Virus record (IMG/VR): IMGVR_UViG_3300037851_000307
Span: 1 to 51,634 of that record
Length of the DNA stretch: 51,634 nt
Reading direction: 5' to 3' (one strand)
DNA from: a virus
Lineage: Duplodnaviria; Heunggongvirae; Uroviricota; Caudoviricetes
Under the pieces are notes generated by a model, which was not told where the DNA came from, did no database searches, and was given only the letters and a program-made list of their open reading frames with translations. Both the position numbers and the translations under genes were made by a program. Numbering within the stretch: position 1 is the stretch's first letter; every line of letters starts with the position of its first letter. Below are positions 34,319 through 43,187 of this stretch, piece by piece.

Positions 34319-34657
34319 ATGGAATTTCAAAGAGACCCAAGAAAAGAAAGATTAATAGCTAATATAAAGATTCTAAAAGCAGAACTTAAAGTTCTTGCAG
34401 TAGAAATAAGACAATTAAAATCAACAAGAAAGCAATGCAAAAACGGATATGTTTCTGGTTTAGGCAATAAACAGAACGAGTTTCGTATTAAGCATATAGC
34501 TAGATGTTTGCTTCGTGGAAGAACGTTAGAGCAAATCGAACCAAAGCTAAAAGATCCTATGGATCCAAACCATACATACGTAAGAACGATGGCTGCTGCT
34601 GTTGTAAAGAAAGTCATGGAGGTAGCAGATGGCGAAGCTCTACGTGCTAGTTCGTAA
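34319..34657 (+). CDS. Basic hypothetical protein with HIARCLLRGR..EQIE motif, 112 aa
   Basis: Strong AAGGAG Shine-Dalgarno; overlaps the Pth2-like gene by 29 nt. Confidence 0.75.
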   Translation: MEFQRDPRKERLIANIKILKAELKVLAVEIRQLKSTRKQCKNGYVSGLGNKQNEFRIKHIARCLLRGRTLEQIEPKLKDPMDPNHTYVRTMAAAVVKKVMEVADGEALRASS

Positions 34658-34934
34658 CGAAGATCTTCCAAAGAACTATCAAGCAGTACAAGCTGGGCAC
34701 GCAGTTGCCCAGTTTTGTCTAGAGCATCCAGATAAATGGAAGAACGAAACCCTCGTATACTTAAGAGGTGGAGATCTTAACCAGATATTTGATTGGTGGA
34801 CAGTTCTTTGCGATAATAAAATAAAGGATATGTCTTATTTTCAAGAGCCAGATATAGACTATGAGATGACCGCAATAGCTGTACTGTCTAACGAAAAAAC
34901 AGACGAACTGTTCAAAGATATGAGATTAGTATAA
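34629..34934 (+). CDS. Peptidyl-tRNA hydrolase type 2 (Pth2/PTRHD1)-like protein, 101 aa
   Basis: KLYVLVRNEDL..QAVQAGHAV..W..TLVYL..EPD..MTAIAV..LFKDMRLV matches the Pth2 fold pattern (KMVVVIRNDL..AQGGHA..TAVAI..LKLL). GGAGG Shine-Dalgarno. Confidence 0.75.
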   Translation: MAKLYVLVRNEDLPKNYQAVQAGHAVAQFCLEHPDKWKNETLVYLRGGDLNQIFDWWTVLCDNKIKDMSYFQEPDIDYEMTAIAVLSNEKTDELFKDMRLV

Positions 34935-34952
34935 AGGATATGTACATCCTTT
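34929..34952 (+). promoter_or_regulatory. Candidate promoter (G-TATAAA) and near-palindrome AAAGGATATGTACATCCTTT ahead of the RNA genes
   Basis: Motif at 34929-34935; inverted repeat at 34933-34952 ends one base before the tRNA-like 5' end. Confidence 0.4.
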
Positions 34953-35040
34953 GCGGGTCGTGTACAAAACTCACAGCGAGAAGAGCTTATAATTCTTCAG
35001 CTGTACAAGTTTAGGGAGTGAAGCCCTACGATCCGCGCCA
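34953..35040 (+). ncRNA. Atypical tRNA-like RNA ending in G-CCA, with 13-bp acceptor+T branch and CU-UAU-AA loop
   Basis: GCGGGTCG(T) pairs with (A)CGATCCGC, followed by G-CCA. TAGGG/CCCTA T-like stem has the non-canonical loop AGTGAAG. GAAGAG/TTCTTC stem closes the 7-nt loop CTTATAA. No canonical D-arm. Confidence 0.65.
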
Positions 35041-35052
35041 TTTTTAATTCAT

Positions 35053-35128
35053 GCGTCATTAAGCTCAGTGGTAGAGCTAGTGCCTCTAAAGCACCTGGTC
35101 GCAGGTTCGAATCCTGTATGACGCTCCA
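35053..35128 (+). tRNA. Amber-suppressor tRNA (anticodon CUA) with glycine-type acceptor stem, 76 nt, encoded CCA
   Basis: Acceptor GCGTCAT/ATGACGC + T + CCA; D arm GCTC-AGTGGTA-GAGC; anticodon stem (A)GTGC/GCAC(C) with loop CT-CTA-AA; 5-nt variable loop; T arm GCAGG-TTCGAAT-CCTGT. Confidence 0.9.
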
Positions 35129-35148
35129 TTTTATCTTTTTGATCCTTT

Positions 35149-35300
35149 GGATTGAACATAATCCTGAAAATTATTGCTAACTAATCCCCTCTGCGCGTGA
35201 AACGCGCACATCATTTGTTGGAACAACAAATGTAAGCTAACAGATAGGGTAAGAATAGAGTGGGGTGGATATATCTAGGATTTATGGTACCCGCGAAACA
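35149..35300. other. Hairpin-rich non-coding element (ncRNA or DNA structural element)
   Basis: Perfect hairpins at 35192-35208 (7 bp) and 35212-35232 (9 bp), both with GAA loops. GGATT/AATCC hairpin at 35149-35164. Possible long-range pairing of 35186-35192 with 35257-35264. No ORF. Confidence 0.45.
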
Positions 35301-35379
35301 CTGTTTTTGTAAGTCAAAAATAAAATATTTTTTAACTTTTTTACTTTTTATGTTTTGTATAACGTGACAAGGAGAAATA

Positions 35380-35958
35380 ATGGAAAAATATATCGCTTTT
35401 GATTGCGAGACAGGTGGTCTCGACCCACAGACTAATTCTTTACTTACAGCATATTTTGTTGTTTTTGATAGAAATTTTAACGTGTTAGGTGAATTAGATT
35501 TAAAAATTAAGCCAGATAAAGGCGGAAGTTATGTTTTGACTTCTGAAGCTATGGGCATCAATAAGATCGATATAGTTGAGCATGATAAGAAAGCTATACC
35601 ATTAAGTCAAGCAAAAAGTGATTTATATAACTTCTTGCAAGCTCATAACCCAGATGGTAAATCCAAGTTGATACCAGTAGGTCACAACATCTATTTTGAT
35701 GAAGACTTCGTCTGCAATACTTTAATATCTCGTGCTAACTGGAATAAATTCTGTAGCTATCGTAGACTTGATACTGGAGTTGTATTACAGTTTTTAAAAC
35801 TCACAAAAGTTATTCCAACAGACGTAACTGGTTCTTTGCAATCAATTGTAGAATATTTCAACATCCCTAAAAAGGGAGAATATCATGATGCCAAGACAGA
35901 CACAATCCTGACAGTTAAGATATTGAAAGCAATGTTAAAAGCATCAACAAAGGAATAA
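35380..35958 (+). CDS. DEDDh 3'-5' exonuclease (DnaQ/epsilon-like), 192 aa
   Basis: AFDCETGG, GHNIYFD, LDT and HDAKTD motifs. Confidence 0.9.
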   Translation: MEKYIAFDCETGGLDPQTNSLLTAYFVVFDRNFNVLGELDLKIKPDKGGSYVLTSEAMGINKIDIVEHDKKAIPLSQAKSDLYNFLQAHNPDGKSKLIPVGHNIYFDEDFVCNTLISRANWNKFCSYRRLDTGVVLQFLKLTKVIPTDVTGSLQSIVEYFNIPKKGEYHDAKTDTILTVKILKAMLKASTKE

Positions 35959-37589: not shown

Positions 37590-39305
37590 ATGTTATATCA
37601 AAAAAGTAAAGCAAAACAAATTATATCTGATAAAAATGTTTTAAAAGATATTGTTGTTAATACTATTCACGACATGGCAACGATTGTCGGTGCGACACTT
37701 GGTCCTGGTGGAAGACCTGTGTTGATTGAGCGAGATGGATTGTCTCCACTTATTACTAAAGATGGAGTTACAGTTGCTAAATCTTTAGGCGTTGCGTTAG
37801 CGGAGGCTAATTTAGTTGTTGAAGCAGCTAAAGAAATCTGTATCAATACTGCTAAGCAAGCAGGCGATGGAACTACTACAGCTATTGTATTAGCAGATGC
37901 TATTACTACACATGGCCAAGAATTCATCAAAAACAATCCTAAATATAATCCTCAAAGATTGATATCTGAATTACAAGAAGCTTATAACAAGGTTATCGTT
38001 CCGTATTTAAAAGAGTATGCAATTAAAACAACTACAGAAGAGCAATTAAAAAACGTTGCTGCTATTTCTGCTAATGGCGATAATGCTATTGCTGATGCAG
38101 TTGTTCAAGCAGTTATGGCTGCTGGAGATGACGGTACTGTTCTTTTAGAAGAAGGACAAGGCAATATAATGAAAGTTGAAACAAACGAAGGTTATGTTGT
38201 TGTATCTGGTCTTAAAGAATTAGGCCAAATTGGTCCTATTTTTATTAACGATAAAGCTGGTCAGCAAGCAAAGATGGACAACGGCGTAGTGTTTTTATAT
38301 GATGGGTCAATCAACGACTTAAAAGTTCCTGGCATAATTCAAACAGTTATGGAAGGCGGTTCTGATCTATTAGGTAACCCAATTATCGTTATTGCACATA
38401 ATTTTTCAGATGTAGCTTTAGATGCATTTGCTAAAACAACAAAAGGTGGAATAATGGTTGTGCCTATTAAAACACCTATGTCTGGTTTACCAAACTCTAG
38501 ATCATTATTCTTACAGGACATGGCAGCATATACAGGCGCAAGCGTATATGATCCAGGTAATGTTGATGACTTTGATGAAGATGGATTTGGCCGATTTGAC
38601 ACTGCTACAGTCAATATGTATGAATCACTTATAGTCAGCAATCCAGATCCTCAAGCTATTGAGGCGCGTATAGAAGAATTAAAAGCTATTGGAAGAGCTG
38701 CATTTTCTGAAATCGACAGAATGCATATTAGAGCGGCAATTGGTAAGTTAACTGGTGGAGTTTCTACTATTTATGTAGGCGGAGCTTCTGAATTAGAAAT
38801 CAGAGAAAAGAAAGACCGTGTTGAAGATGCTGTTGAAGCTGTTCGTTCTGCTATTGCAGAAGGAATTATCCCCGGTGGATGCTCTGTTCATCTTAAGTTG
38901 ATTACAGAATTAAGAGATCACCCAGATAAAAAAGAATCATGGGCAATCTTAGGGCGAGCTTTAGAAGCACCATTTAATCTATTGATGACAAATTGCGGCG
39001 AAGAGCCAGATATGATTCTTCAGTTGTTAGGCATGAACTTAACAGCTGGTGATCCAGGATTGCCTAAAACCGTGTTTGATGCTAATAGCCACACTATTAC
39101 TGACCCTTTTAAGGCAGGAATTATTGAACCAGCAAAGGTTTGTAGAGTAAGTATCGGAAACGCTCTTTCTGTAGCGTCACTTCTTATAACAATTGGCGGT
39201 ATAGTAGTTGTTCCGCGTGATGCTGGATTAGAAAACCAATTAGCATTAAGTAAGCAGGCATTTCAAGATATGATTGCTGGCGGTGGAATGGGTCAAGGTG
39301 AATAA
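37590..39305 (+). CDS. groEL: Phage-encoded GroEL-like chaperonin, 571 aa
   Basis: TLGPGGRPVLI, ITKDGVTVAK, AGDGTTTA, LTGGV, KKDRVEDAV, GIIEPAKV and a GGM-type tail. Confidence 0.95.
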   Translation: MLYQKSKAKQIISDKNVLKDIVVNTIHDMATIVGATLGPGGRPVLIERDGLSPLITKDGVTVAKSLGVALAEANLVVEAAKEICINTAKQAGDGTTTAIVLADAITTHGQEFIKNNPKYNPQRLISELQEAYNKVIVPYLKEYAIKTTTEEQLKNVAAISANGDNAIADAVVQAVMAAGDDGTVLLEEGQGNIMKVETNEGYVVVSGLKELGQIGPIFINDKAGQQAKMDNGVVFLYDGSINDLKVPGIIQTVMEGGSDLLGNPIIVIAHNFSDVALDAFAKTTKGGIMVVPIKTPMSGLPNSRSLFLQDMAAYTGASVYDPGNVDDFDEDGFGRFDTATVNMYESLIVSNPDPQAIEARIEELKAIGRAAFSEIDRMHIRAAIGKLTGGVSTIYVGGASELEIREKKDRVEDAVEAVRSAIAEGIIPGGCSVHLKLITELRDHPDKKESWAILGRALEAPFNLLMTNCGEEPDMILQLLGMNLTAGDPGLPKTVFDANSHTITDPFKAGIIEPAKVCRVSIGNALSVASLLITIGGIVVVPRDAGLENQLALSKQAFQDMIAGGGMGQGE

Positions 39306-42176: not shown

Positions 42177-42623
42177 ATGAGTAACTTTTTAAAGAAAATA
42201 GAGAGTTTAGGTGATCTTTTAAAGCAATTTAATGCTTCTATTAAGCAACCTAAAATGGCCGGCGTTAAACCACCAAAAACTAGTGCCCCTAAGTTACCCG
42301 GAATGCCATCTCAAAATCATAAAGATCCTGTTAAGGTTGCTCAACAAATTAAGGATGCTGGTTCTGGCGCTAAACCTATTGCAATGGAAGCTGCTAACCA
42401 GATTAAAGAATCATATAAAACTTCTAAAAATGGTCAATGGTCAATATCTAAAGCTGAAGTTAAGAAGCCAGAGGCTCCTAAAATAGCTGATGCTTACCAT
42501 ATTCATGTCAATGGTGAAAGAATAACTGATAAGCCATTAACTAGACAGCAAATCATCAAAAGATATGGCTCTGTTCAAAGACTTGAATCTAGTGGGCATC
42601 TTTTAGTTCCACATAAAGATTAG
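42177..42623 (+). CDS. Hypothetical Lys/Pro-rich protein, 148 aa
   Basis: Intact ORF with leaderless-type start geometry. Confidence 0.7.
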   Translation: MSNFLKKIESLGDLLKQFNASIKQPKMAGVKPPKTSAPKLPGMPSQNHKDPVKVAQQIKDAGSGAKPIAMEAANQIKESYKTSKNGQWSISKAEVKKPEAPKIADAYHIHVNGERITDKPLTRQQIIKRYGSVQRLESSGHLLVPHKD

Positions 42624-42629
42624 TATAAT
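42623..42629 (+). promoter_or_regulatory. -10 element (G-TATAAT), 6 nt before ATG 42636
   Basis: Recurring motif with fixed spacing; no Shine-Dalgarno. Confidence 0.6.
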
Positions 42630-42635
42630 TGCCTA

Positions 42636-43187
42636 ATGGCAAAGAAACGTCCTCCTTTTAATCAAAACGCAGCGATTCGATCCGCAATAAGGCGTGTATT
42701 TTCGCGTTCCCCTATTGTCAGGGAGATGATGTCTGCTGTTAGAAGAGAAGTACCTAAGTTTAACAAAGATGGATCTAGAGCTAAGAAAGATGCAGTTCAG
42801 TATCAATGTAACGTGTGTAAAACCTGGACAAAAAGTACAGCTATTGCTGTAGATCACAAAAATCCAGTTATTGATGTCGAAGATGGATTCGTTGATTGGA
42901 ACACTTTTGTTGATAGATTGTTTTGCGGGCCAGAAAACTTACAGGTAGTTTGCGATACTTGCCATCAAGAAAAAACCAACAAAGAACGCTTTGATAGATC
43001 TTTTATTAAAGATCAAGAGATATTAAAAAATATAGAACGAGTAGCCCCAGATTGGGACATTGAATTTGTTACTAAATTTGCTAAAAAATTCACAGCTAGC
43101 AAACTTAGCTTATATCCTAAAGACTTCACAGATCGCATTATTCGCCTTAAAGAACAATTGCGTGGTAGAAATAGGAAGAGCAAATAG
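42636..43187 (+). CDS. HNH endonuclease, 183 aa
   Basis: YQCNVC..VDHKNP..NLQVVCDTCHQEKT. Confidence 0.85.
   Translation: MAKKRPPFNQNAAIRSAIRRVFSRSPIVREMMSAVRREVPKFNKDGSRAKKDAVQYQCNVCKTWTKSTAIAVDHKNPVIDVEDGFVDWNTFVDRLFCGPENLQVVCDTCHQEKTNKERFDRSFIKDQEILKNIERVAPDWDIEFVTKFAKKFTASKLSLYPKDFTDRIIRLKEQLRGRNRKSK

What the first reader, a model, noticed from the sequence alone, without database searches (positions are those of the whole stretch)
35053..35128. Amber-suppressor tRNA(CUA) built on a glycine-tRNA body in a phage that still uses TAG as stop
The loop is a canonical C32-U33-CUA-A37-A38. The acceptor has G1-C72, C2-G71, G3-C70 and U73, the established bacterial GlyRS acceptor determinants, and the D-loop (AGUGGUA) and T-arm match tRNA-Gly architecture. 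Known natural phage amber recoding is TAG->Gln, so TAG->Gly would be different. Yet 9 of the 47 stop-bearing genes I called end in TAG, and 1161-2500-aa genes contain no in-frame TAG. This points to selective or timed readthrough, rescue of amber-containing genes elsewhere, or sabotage of host termination, rather than a code change. An extra base between acceptor and D stems (UAA) and an A27-C43 mismatch may tune its efficiency.
Basis: partly seen in the sequence, partly recalled or inferred. Interest (0 to 1): 0.85.

Follow-up and report, generated by a model that had tools for sequence, protein, structure and literature searches.

The report
Phage amber-suppressor tRNA in hydrolase cassette
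This is a real stop-codon-reading (UAG) tRNA in a phage that uses the normal genetic code; the evidence does not show it to be a glycine tRNA, and it is the third gene of a widespread phage cassette whose other two genes encode a Pth2-type tRNA-ester hydrolase and a small helical partner.

Summary
ARAGORN and Rfam (60 bits) both call a tRNA with a CUA anticodon at 35053-35128. It has the stated acceptor stem, U73, an encoded CCA, an extra base after position 9 and an A27-C43 mismatch. The phage uses TAG as a stop codon (25 of 150 ORFs).

The "glycine body" reading is not supported.
- In 16 related tRNAs of the same clade, only G1-C72 is constant.
- G3-C70 occurs only in the window and one relative.
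- C2-G71 is lost in the closest relative.
- U73 becomes A or G in others.
- The phage's own tRNA-Gln and tRNA-Glu also carry U73.
- The tRNA body resembles no single isotype.

The context matters more. The two genes directly upstream encode a small basic helical protein and a Pth2-fold hydrolase (pLDDT 97.5; top structural matches are all Pth2). In 51 of 67 unrelated phage loci holding this hydrolase, a suppressor tRNA lies just downstream. Their acceptor stems and discriminators are highly diverse. A complete relative (176.5 kb) also uses the standard code.

This scan had already noted the same tRNA-hydrolase pairing on other DNA (at least 185 genomes), often with an in-frame TAG in the hydrolase gene. 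This window has no such TAG. I found no paper describing the link. The inserted amino acid and the purpose of the cassette remain unknown.

The parts
34319..34657 (+). Gene for a small basic all-helical protein (112 aa, 'N-dom'), the first gene of the cassette
   Evidence: 61 homologues with an invariant motif around K-H-I-A-x-C-x-L-R-G-R-T-x-E-Q-I-E. AF2 model pLDDT 89.6, helices only, with no PDB fold match. Fused to the hydrolase in 8 loci and present next to it in 51 more.
34629..34934 (+). Gene for a Pth2-fold hydrolase (101 aa). It overlaps the first gene by 29 nt and has its own GGAGG-N6-ATG start signal
   Evidence: AF2 pLDDT 97.5. Foldseek top 14 PDB hits include the named Pth2 entries Bit1 1q7s, 1xty and 3erj and structural-genomics entries such as 2zv3, at TM 0.70-0.80. 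Pfam PF01981 is recorded on several homologues and matches the L003 homologue at threshold. PHROG 3668 'hydrolase'. Overlap geometry.
34953..35040 (+). tRNA-like element ending in G-CCA, between the hydrolase gene and the tRNA; probably a lineage-specific insertion
   Evidence: Absent at this position in L081 and L001. No paralogue in the genome, and it folds into a long closing stem with a T-arm-like hairpin. Not called by ARAGORN or Rfam. Its membership of the cassette is uncertain.
35053..35128 (+). tRNA with anticodon CUA (amber-suppressor type), U73, encoded CCA
   Evidence: Syntenic orthologues with compensatory stem changes.
35192..35208 (+). Conserved GC hairpin (GCGCG-UGAAA-CGCGC) followed by a T-rich tail; likely the end of the cassette transcript
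   Evidence: Terminator-like site in the scan. The hairpin is kept in L081, and also in L001 despite divergent flanks.

Best explanation
The feature is a functional, elongator-type amber-suppressor tRNA. It is the third gene of a conserved phage cassette: a small basic helical protein, a Pth2-fold hydrolase, then the tRNA(CUA). The phage translates its own genes with the standard code.

Shown here:
- The tRNA is real and under purifying selection on its cloverleaf and on the loop CUCUAAA.
- It lies apart from the phage's 15-tRNA cluster and directly behind the two protein genes, on the same strand, before a conserved hairpin.
- The same order recurs in most phage loci that hold the hydrolase.
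- Acceptor stem and discriminator drift freely, even between close relatives.

Inferred:
- The three genes are co-transcribed.
- A host synthetase charges the tRNA. Which one cannot be read from the sequence, and it probably differs between relatives. For this copy Gly, Gln/Glu-type or U35-driven Lys/Gln charging are all possible.
- The tRNA reads UAG in competition with RF1.
- The hydrolase, with its partner, cleaves the ester bond of acyl- or peptidyl-tRNA. It would do so either on this tRNA, setting the level of read-through, or on the peptidyl-tRNAs that read-through produces.

In some relatives the hydrolase gene itself needs UAG read-through. In this window it does not, so both would be made together. 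What the phage gains from read-through is not known.
For: The tRNA is real. Selection: of 20 predicted pairs across 17 clade tRNAs, 16 show compensatory double changes while the loop is constant.

Cassette: a suppressor tRNA (50 CUA, 1 UUA) lies within 1.5 kb downstream on the same strand in 51 of 67 viral loci found with the hydrolase alignment, mostly under 100 nt away. Lak megaphages have a UUA suppressor about 700 nt upstream of their copy. The cultured Mycobacterium phage Myrna has gp84 plus a tRNA(CUA) about 130 nt downstream.

Hydrolase fold. The partner is fused in 8 loci and adjacent in 51.

The family's tRNAs work as suppressors: 12 of 73 loci carry an in-frame TAG in or just before the Pth2 domain of an otherwise conserved gene.

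Standard code: for this record; for the complete 176.5-kb relative G002 (TAG ends 42 of 259 ORFs, and there are no genuine in-frame TAGs in 74 shared genes).

No fixed identity: among 59 cassette tRNAs N73 is A 26, U 16, G 14, C 3, with unrelated acceptor stems. Some phages carry two tandem copies with different N73 (L013, L016, L060). The closest-clade orthologues differ too.
Against: Nothing here is experimental. Transcription, CCA-end integrity, charging, decoding and the hydrolase's substrate are all untested. The record is only about 69% complete, so targets could lie in the missing part. In this window neither cassette gene contains a TAG, so no read-through target is known for this phage. 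A suppressor should be costly to a phage that ends 17% of its genes in TAG. Median read-through extensions are short (7 codons) but no shorter than after TAA or TGA. The extra base at 9a and the weak 27-43 pair could mean low activity. The link between hydrolase and tRNA is genetic linkage only.
Confidence: 0.55

Rival explanations
1. One reading: the tRNA is charged by host GlyRS through U73, G1-C72, C2-G71 and G3-C70, and inserts glycine at UAG.
For: All four acceptor determinants are present. The phage's own tRNA-Gly(UCC) has the same G1-C72, C2-G71, G3-C70 and U73. Bacterial Gly identity includes U73, G1-C72 and C2-G71, and an E. coli tRNA-Gly amber suppressor depended on U73 in vivo (PMC9976931).
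Against: C35 and C36, which are also Gly determinants (PMC9976931), are replaced by U35 and A36. The acceptor set is not conserved in orthologues: L081 has G2-C71 and U3-A70, L083 has A3-U70, and L084, L086 and L088 have A73. U73 also occurs on the phage's tRNA-Gln and tRNA-Glu. The body is no closer to Gly than to Lys, Arg, Ala, Thr or Val. In-frame TAGs in relatives' hydrolase genes fall at variable columns, mostly with a Lys/Glu/Pro consensus, and never at the conserved Gly.
Confidence: 0.12
2. The tRNA and the hydrolase are independent translation-support genes that merely share an operon. Pth2 recycles peptidyl-tRNAs in general, and the tRNA suppresses UAG for an unrelated purpose such as disturbing host termination.
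For: PTH2 is found in many jumbo phages and has been read as part of tRNA repair and ribosome rescue (PMC7824862). Distant homologues in Aeromonas phage 65 and Klebsiella phage K64-1 have no tRNA beside them. Many loci are tRNA-rich, and four loci (L031, L034, L066, L072) carry a tmRNA, three of them with no CUA tRNA nearby.
Against: The neighbour is specifically a suppressor tRNA in 51 of 67 loci, usually the very next gene, although suppressors are a small minority of phage tRNAs (1 of 16 here, 2 of 34 in G002). In this phage and in G002 the suppressor sits with the hydrolase, far from the main tRNA cluster. TAG codons inside the hydrolase gene in 12 loci tie its synthesis to the suppressor.
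Confidence: 0.15
3. The tRNA is a remnant or forerunner of TAG recoding (code 15), and recoded genes lie in the missing third of the genome.
For: The record is about 69% complete. Lak megaphages, reported as TAG-recoded in the cited recoding papers (not checked here), carry a related hydrolase next to a suppressor tRNA. Suppressor tRNAs correlate with recoding in gut phages (bioRxiv 10.1101/2021.08.26.457843).
Against: The baseplate and tail-fibre genes present here are intact under code 11, and a 1558-aa ORF among them ends in TAG. TAG is not depleted as a stop (17%). The complete clade relative G002 shows no TAG-specific gain in coding density (0.905 to 0.919, against 0.916 for TGA) and no genuine in-frame TAG in 74 shared genes. 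The 67 loci together end 111 of 731 ORFs in TAG. No RF or aaRS domains were found.
Confidence: 0.05
4. The tRNA is not mainly an amino-acid donor. Together with the hydrolase and its partner it forms a UAG-specific termination or rescue device that does not need RF1: the tRNA recognises UAG and the hydrolase frees the chain.
For: It would explain why only the anticodon loop is conserved while the acceptor stem and discriminator drift. It would also explain why the genomes keep TAG as a stop, why a hydrolase of the tRNA ester bond is the constant partner, and why three of the four loci with a tmRNA lack a nearby CUA tRNA.
Against: This is pure inference. Pth2 enzymes are known to act on free peptidyl-tRNA, not on the ribosome. 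In-frame TAGs inside hydrolase genes of relatives require true read-through with an inserted residue. Nothing suggests that RF1 is limiting in infected cells.
Confidence: 0.1

Closest known systems
Suppressor tRNAs of stop-codon-recoded phages (TAG read as Gln, 'code 15'; crAss-like and Lak phages; bioRxiv 10.1101/2021.08.26.457843, PMC9523058)
   Same: A phage-encoded tRNA with a CUA anticodon in a phage whose host uses the standard code. Lak phages also hold a related Pth2-like gene near a suppressor tRNA.
   Different: This phage and a complete relative are not recoded. TAG ends 16-17% of ORFs and conserved genes hold no in-frame TAG. No single amino-acid identity is evident.
Orphan tRNA(CUA) genes of the standard-code jumbo phage XacN1 (PMC5852040)
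   Same: Suppressor tRNAs in a cultured phage that uses code 11. In-silico read-through found no target, as here.
   Different: In XacN1 the suppressors sit among 56 tRNA genes in the terminal repeats, and its peptidyl-tRNA hydrolase (ORF295) is not described as adjacent. Here the tRNA is solitary and directly follows the hydrolase gene. I did not inspect the XacN1 DNA.
PTH2 (PF01981) peptidyl-tRNA hydrolases of archaea, eukaryotes and jumbo phages (PMC7824862)
   Same: The neighbouring 101-aa protein has the Pth2 fold and the family's V-R-x-D-L and A-Q-x-x-H-A type motifs.
   Different: It is shorter than cellular Pth2, mostly below Pfam's threshold, paired or fused with a helical partner of unknown fold, and genetically tied to a suppressor tRNA. 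The jumbo-phage survey does not mention that link (0 occurrences of 'suppressor').
prfB (RF2) autoregulation through an in-frame UGA (from general knowledge)
   Same: In 12 of 73 relatives a termination-related gene carries the very stop codon whose decoding it could influence. That is the logic of a feedback loop.
   Different: The codon is read through by a tRNA rather than bypassed by a frameshift. The window's own copy has no in-frame TAG, so the analogy does not apply to this phage.
Engineered E. coli tRNA-Gly(CUA) amber suppressor (McClain et al. 1991, as reviewed in PMC9976931)
   Same: A CUA anticodon on a tRNA with G1-C72, C2-G71 and U73.
   Different: That tRNA has a true tRNA-Gly body. 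Here the body has no isotype affinity and the determinants are not conserved in orthologues.

Membership tests
tRNA (Rfam RF00005), elongator type | Cloverleaf with a 7-bp acceptor stem, D arm with GG, T loop UUCGAAU and a 7-nt anticodon loop with U33 and purine 37 | tested here: met
   60.1 bits against a gathering score of 29; ARAGORN structure. Departures: one extra base after position 9 and an A27-C43 mismatch.
tRNA (Rfam RF00005), elongator type | Stems maintained by compensatory change in relatives | tested here: met
   16 of 20 pairs show double compensatory changes across 17 clade tRNAs.
Amber suppressor tRNA | Anticodon CUA in a normal loop context | tested here: met
   The loop is CUCUAAA, as in 40 of 59 cassette tRNAs.
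Amber suppressor tRNA | Is aminoacylated and decodes UAG in vivo | not testable with these tools
   Indirect, family-level support only: conserved hydrolase genes with in-frame TAG in 12 of 73 loci.
Bacterial tRNA-Gly identity set (PMC9976931) | U73, G1-C72, C2-G71 (and G3-C70) | tested here: met
   Read directly from the sequence.
Bacterial tRNA-Gly identity set (PMC9976931) | C35 and C36 in the anticodon | tested here: not met
   The anticodon is C34 U35 A36.
Bacterial tRNA-Gly identity set (PMC9976931) | Determinants conserved among orthologues, as expected for a fixed identity | tested here: not met
   Pair 2-71 is C-G in 13, G-C in 2 and A-U in 2. Pair 3-70 is G-C in only 2 of 17. N73 is U in 7, G in 6 and A in 4.
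Bacterial tRNA-Gly identity set (PMC9976931) | Body closest to tRNA-Gly | tested here: not met
   Nearest of 88 phage tRNAs: Lys, Arg and Ala at 0.73, Thr and Gly at 0.70, and the phage's own Gly and Val at 0.68. BLAST hits are of mixed isotype.
Phage stop-codon recoding module (code 15) | In-frame TAG in many conserved genes; low coding density under code 11 | tested here: not met
   Density is 0.944 under code 11 and 0.925 with TAG as sense. The complete relative G002 behaves alike.
Phage stop-codon recoding module (code 15) | Phage release factor or aminoacyl-tRNA synthetase genes | tested here: not met
   No PF00472, PF00749, PF00587 or PF00152 match in the record, which is about 69% complete.
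PTH2 family (neighbouring gene 34629-34934) | Pth2 fold | tested here: met
   Foldseek probability 1.00 and TM 0.70-0.80 to 2zv3, 1q7s, 1xty and 3erj.
PTH2 family (neighbouring gene 34629-34934) | Passes Pfam PF01981 gathering score | tested here: inconclusive
   The window protein has no Pfam hit. The L003 homologue scores 23.1 against a cut-off of 23, and several database homologues carry PF01981.
PTH2 family (neighbouring gene 34629-34934) | Peptidyl-tRNA esterase activity | not testable with these tools
   Conserved R9, D12, Q21, H24, E73-P74-D75 and T81 resemble Pth2 motifs. That resemblance is from memory and was not aligned here to a solved active site.
Suppressor-gated Pth2 cassette (earlier notes of this scan) | tRNA(CUA) next to a Pth2-like gene | tested here: met
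   118 nt separate the gene's end from the tRNA in the window. The pattern holds in 51 of 67 loci.
Suppressor-gated Pth2 cassette (earlier notes of this scan) | In-frame TAG early in or inside the Pth2-like gene or its leader | tested here: not met
   Neither 34319-34657 nor 34629-34934 holds an in-frame TAG. 12 of 73 related loci do.

The most novel reading that the evidence does not exclude
The three genes form a self-contained device for UAG codons that does not depend on which amino acid the tRNA carries. The tRNA supplies codon recognition. The Pth2-fold enzyme, positioned by its helical partner, cuts the ester bond of that tRNA. The cassette would then either terminate or rescue translation at UAG without RF1, or hold read-through at a set level by feedback. 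That would explain why the acceptor stem and discriminator evolve almost freely while the anticodon loop and the hydrolase are kept.
Probability: 0.12. Interest if true: 0.9.

Novelty: new variant of a known kind. Interest (0 to 1): 0.6.

Why it matters
Suppressor tRNAs in phages are usually explained by stop-codon recoding. Those found in standard-code phages, such as XacN1, have had no explanation. Here the suppressor is one part of a conserved three-gene cassette with a tRNA-ester hydrolase, present in phages from about 25% to 59% GC and from under 50 kb to over 400 kb, and in at least one cultured phage (Myrna). That points to a dedicated and so far undescribed way in which phages handle UAG decoding or termination. 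It also cautions against reading amino-acid identity from the acceptor stem of a single phage tRNA: in this lineage the acceptor half turns over very fast. If the hydrolase proves specific for the suppressor, the cassette could serve as a compact natural controller of amber suppression.

Tried and rejected
1. Megablast of 18 kb of the window against 50,697 phage records found nothing. An exact 32-nt tRNA pattern in viral contigs also found nothing.
3. TAG-split genes in this genome: five TAG-ended ORFs have long in-frame extensions. Each is explained by an abutting or neighbouring gene with its own start (an HNH endonuclease; TAG directly followed by ATG in two cases) or by an extension with no called same-frame gene. 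This reading was rejected.
4. Programmed +1 frameshift joining the two cassette proteins: the hydrolase frame is +1 in 41 of 51 split loci, but nearly all have their own start codon within or just after the overlap, many with a visible Shine-Dalgarno-like motif, so ordinary coupled initiation is the simpler reading.
5. A decoy for TacT-type toxins that acetylate Gly-tRNA through U73 and G71 (PMC9976931): rejected because L081 has C71 and other orthologues have A73 or G73.
6. Fold of the helical partner: no PDB match with E <= 0.001.
7. Complex prediction of hydrolase plus partner returned no verdict (score 0.01). This is evidence neither for nor against binding.
8. An Rfam E-value scan of 34900-35400 found only the tRNA. 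The downstream conserved stretch has fold z -1.4.
9. Inferring the inserted residue from in-frame TAGs in relatives' hydrolase genes: only 9 sites, all at variable columns (5 with a weak Lys consensus, 2 Pro, 1 Glu, 1 insert). This is too weak to name an amino acid.
11. Gp23 (PF07068) rang nowhere, including the controls, so it says nothing.

Full report
**The object.** ARAGORN finds a single tRNA in the window, at 35053-35128 on the + strand, with anticodon CTA. Rfam's tRNA model matches it at 60.1 bits, about twice the gathering score.
- The sequence gives acceptor stem GCGUCAU/AUGACGC, discriminator U73, an encoded CCA, D loop AGUGGUA, T loop UUCGAAU and anticodon loop CUCUAAA.
- Both programs place one extra base between the acceptor and D stems. 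Both leave A27 opposite C43.

**The genome.** The window belongs to a single 115,634-bp viral contig with 37.6% GC. It carries 15 more tRNAs, all clustered at 105.7-111.0 kb, about 70 kb from this one. CheckV rates the record about 69% complete.
- Under code 11, long ORFs cover 94.4% of it. Reading TAG as sense lowers that figure to 92.5%.
- Of 150 ORFs, 25 end in TAG, nine of them in the window. The median in-frame distance to the next stop is 7 codons after TAG, TGA and TAA alike.
- Five TAG-ended ORFs with long extensions are accounted for by neighbouring genes with their own starts or by extensions with no called same-frame gene.
- The first 26 kb encodes baseplate and tail-fibre proteins with intact ORFs of up to 2509 aa. 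A 1558-aa ORF in the same block ends in TAG.
- No release-factor domain and no class Ic, IIb or II synthetase domain is present.

**Relatives.** No cultured phage is close at the DNA level. Protein-guided searches found syntenic loci. In each locus that reaches upstream far enough, except L002 and L005, a tRNA(CUA) lies at the same place.
- An RNAalifold analysis of 17 clade tRNAs recovers the cloverleaf. Of 20 pairs, 16 are kept through changes on both sides, while the anticodon loop is invariant apart from one C38.
- This rules out a sequencing error and a decaying pseudogene.

**Amino-acid identity.** The same alignment argues against the glycine reading.
- Only G1-C72 is constant.
- Pair 2-71 is C-G in 13 tRNAs, G-C in 2 and A-U in 2.
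- Pair 3-70 is G-C only in the window and L001.
- N73 is U in 7, G in 6 and A in 4.
- The closest relative, L081, has 85% identity in the neighbouring protein. Its tRNA has a D arm, anticodon arm and variable loop identical but for one base, including the extra base and A27-C43. Its acceptor and T stems, however, are fully replaced (GGUCCGU/ACGGACC).
- L084 shares the extra base and the D arm but has A73.
- Within this phage, U73 is also carried by tRNA-Gln(UUG) and tRNA-Glu(UUC), not only by tRNA-Gly.
- With the anticodon masked, the body is about as close to Lys, Arg, Ala, Thr, Val and Gly tRNAs (0.67-0.73). BLAST hits are of mixed isotype.
- The Gly determinants C35 and C36 (PMC9976931) are absent by definition.

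**The cassette.** The gene ending 118 nt upstream (34629-34934, 101 aa) folds with pLDDT 97.5. Its 14 best PDB matches include the named Pth2 peptidyl-tRNA hydrolases Bit1, 1xty and 3erj (TM 0.70-0.80). Pfam PTH2 is recorded on several homologues.
- The gene before it (34319-34657, 112 aa) encodes a basic all-helical protein with a strongly conserved motif and no recognisable fold.
- The two are fused in 8 loci and adjacent in 51. When adjacent they mostly overlap by about 29 nt, and the hydrolase gene keeps its own start signals.
- A search of viral contigs with the hydrolase alignment returned 67 loci from very different phages. In 51 of them a suppressor tRNA (CUA; UUA once) lies within 1.5 kb downstream on the same strand, usually within 100 nt.
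- Lak megaphages and the cultured Mycobacterium phage Myrna show the same neighbourhood. In Myrna the tRNA is annotated as tRNA-Ser.
- Across 59 such tRNAs the loop YUCUAAA is kept, the acceptor stems are unrelated and all four discriminators occur (A 26, U 16, G 14, C 3). Some phages have two tandem copies with different discriminators.

**Are the other carriers recoded?** Together the loci end 111 of 731 ORFs in TAG. G002, a complete 176,504-bp clade relative with terminal repeats, a fused cassette and two suppressors set apart from its main tRNA cluster, has 90.5% coding density under code 11 and 42 of 259 ORFs ending in TAG. It has no genuine in-frame TAG in the 74 genes it shares with this phage.

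**Earlier notes of this scan.** After I had found the cassette, the index showed that the same pairing had been noted many times on other DNA: 248 notes in at least 185 genomes. Those notes read it as a 'suppressor-gated' PTH2 gene with an early in-frame TAG. I tested that reading.
- 12 of 73 loci have a TAG in or just before the Pth2 domain, or between the two domains.
- The window and its near relatives have none.
- The TAG sites fall at variable columns and do not identify the inserted residue.
- They do imply that tRNAs of this family act as working suppressors.

**Literature.** Suppressor tRNAs in standard-code phages are on record without explanation (XacN1, PMC5852040). PTH2 in jumbo phages has been read as ribosome rescue with no mention of suppressors (PMC7824862). 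Recoding papers link suppressors to code change. I found no description of the tRNA-hydrolase link. The library does not cover all journals.

**Conclusion.** The tRNA is genuine and selected, and the standard-code statement is right. The glycine identity is not supported. The most informative fact is the tRNA's membership of a conserved hydrolase cassette, here in a form without an in-frame TAG. How the hydrolase and the tRNA interact, which residue is inserted and what the phage gains are inferences that need the experiments listed.

Noticed in passing
window 34953-35040: tRNA-like RNA ending in G-CCA, with a long closing stem and a T-arm-like hairpin, inserted between the hydrolase gene and the tRNA. 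It is absent from L081 and L001 and has no paralogue in the genome. L014-L016 carry a different kind of odd tRNA-like gene (81-96 nt, enlarged anticodon arm, G73-CCA) 100-200 nt upstream of their fused cassette gene.
   Followed up: partly
window 35129-35330: The noncoding stretch after the tRNA is far better conserved against L081 than most of the intergenic flank around it. It has two hairpins (35192-35208, also kept in L001, and about 35212-35232). It matches no Rfam family and its fold z-score is only -1.4.
   Followed up: partly
window 35053-35128 compared with L081 3346-3421: Mosaic tRNA evolution: the D arm, anticodon arm and variable loop are identical but for one base, while the acceptor and T stems are replaced with full compensation, as if the top half of the tRNA had been swapped.
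   Followed up: partly
G000 108017-108092, 110932-111006 and 107938-108014 (beyond the window): The phage's own tRNA-Gln(UUG) and tRNA-Glu(UUC) have U73, like its tRNA-Gly. From general knowledge this is unusual for bacterial-type Gln and Glu tRNAs and may say something about the host's identity rules.
   Followed up: no
window 42177-43187; L001 4835-5251: An HNH endonuclease gene (42636-43187) lies in frame four codons behind the TAG of an unknown 148-aa ORF. L001 has an Endonuclease VII-like gene inserted between its cassette gene and the tRNA. Both are likely mobile insertions.
   Followed up: no
window 37590-39305: Phage-encoded GroEL-type chaperonin (PHROG 5725, E 1.5e-106), conserved at about 62% identity in five related viral contigs.
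   Followed up: no
L091 (NC_011273 33522-33593): In Mycobacterium phage Myrna the gene annotated tRNA-Ser (MYRNA_86) is called by ARAGORN as a 72-nt tRNA with anticodon CUA, about 130 nt after the Pth2-like gp84. It is probably misannotated in the record.
   Followed up: partly
G000 106947-107038 (beyond the window); G002 134394-134486: tRNA-Ile(UAU) genes of 92-93 nt with a long extra arm occur in both this phage and its complete relative.
   Followed up: no
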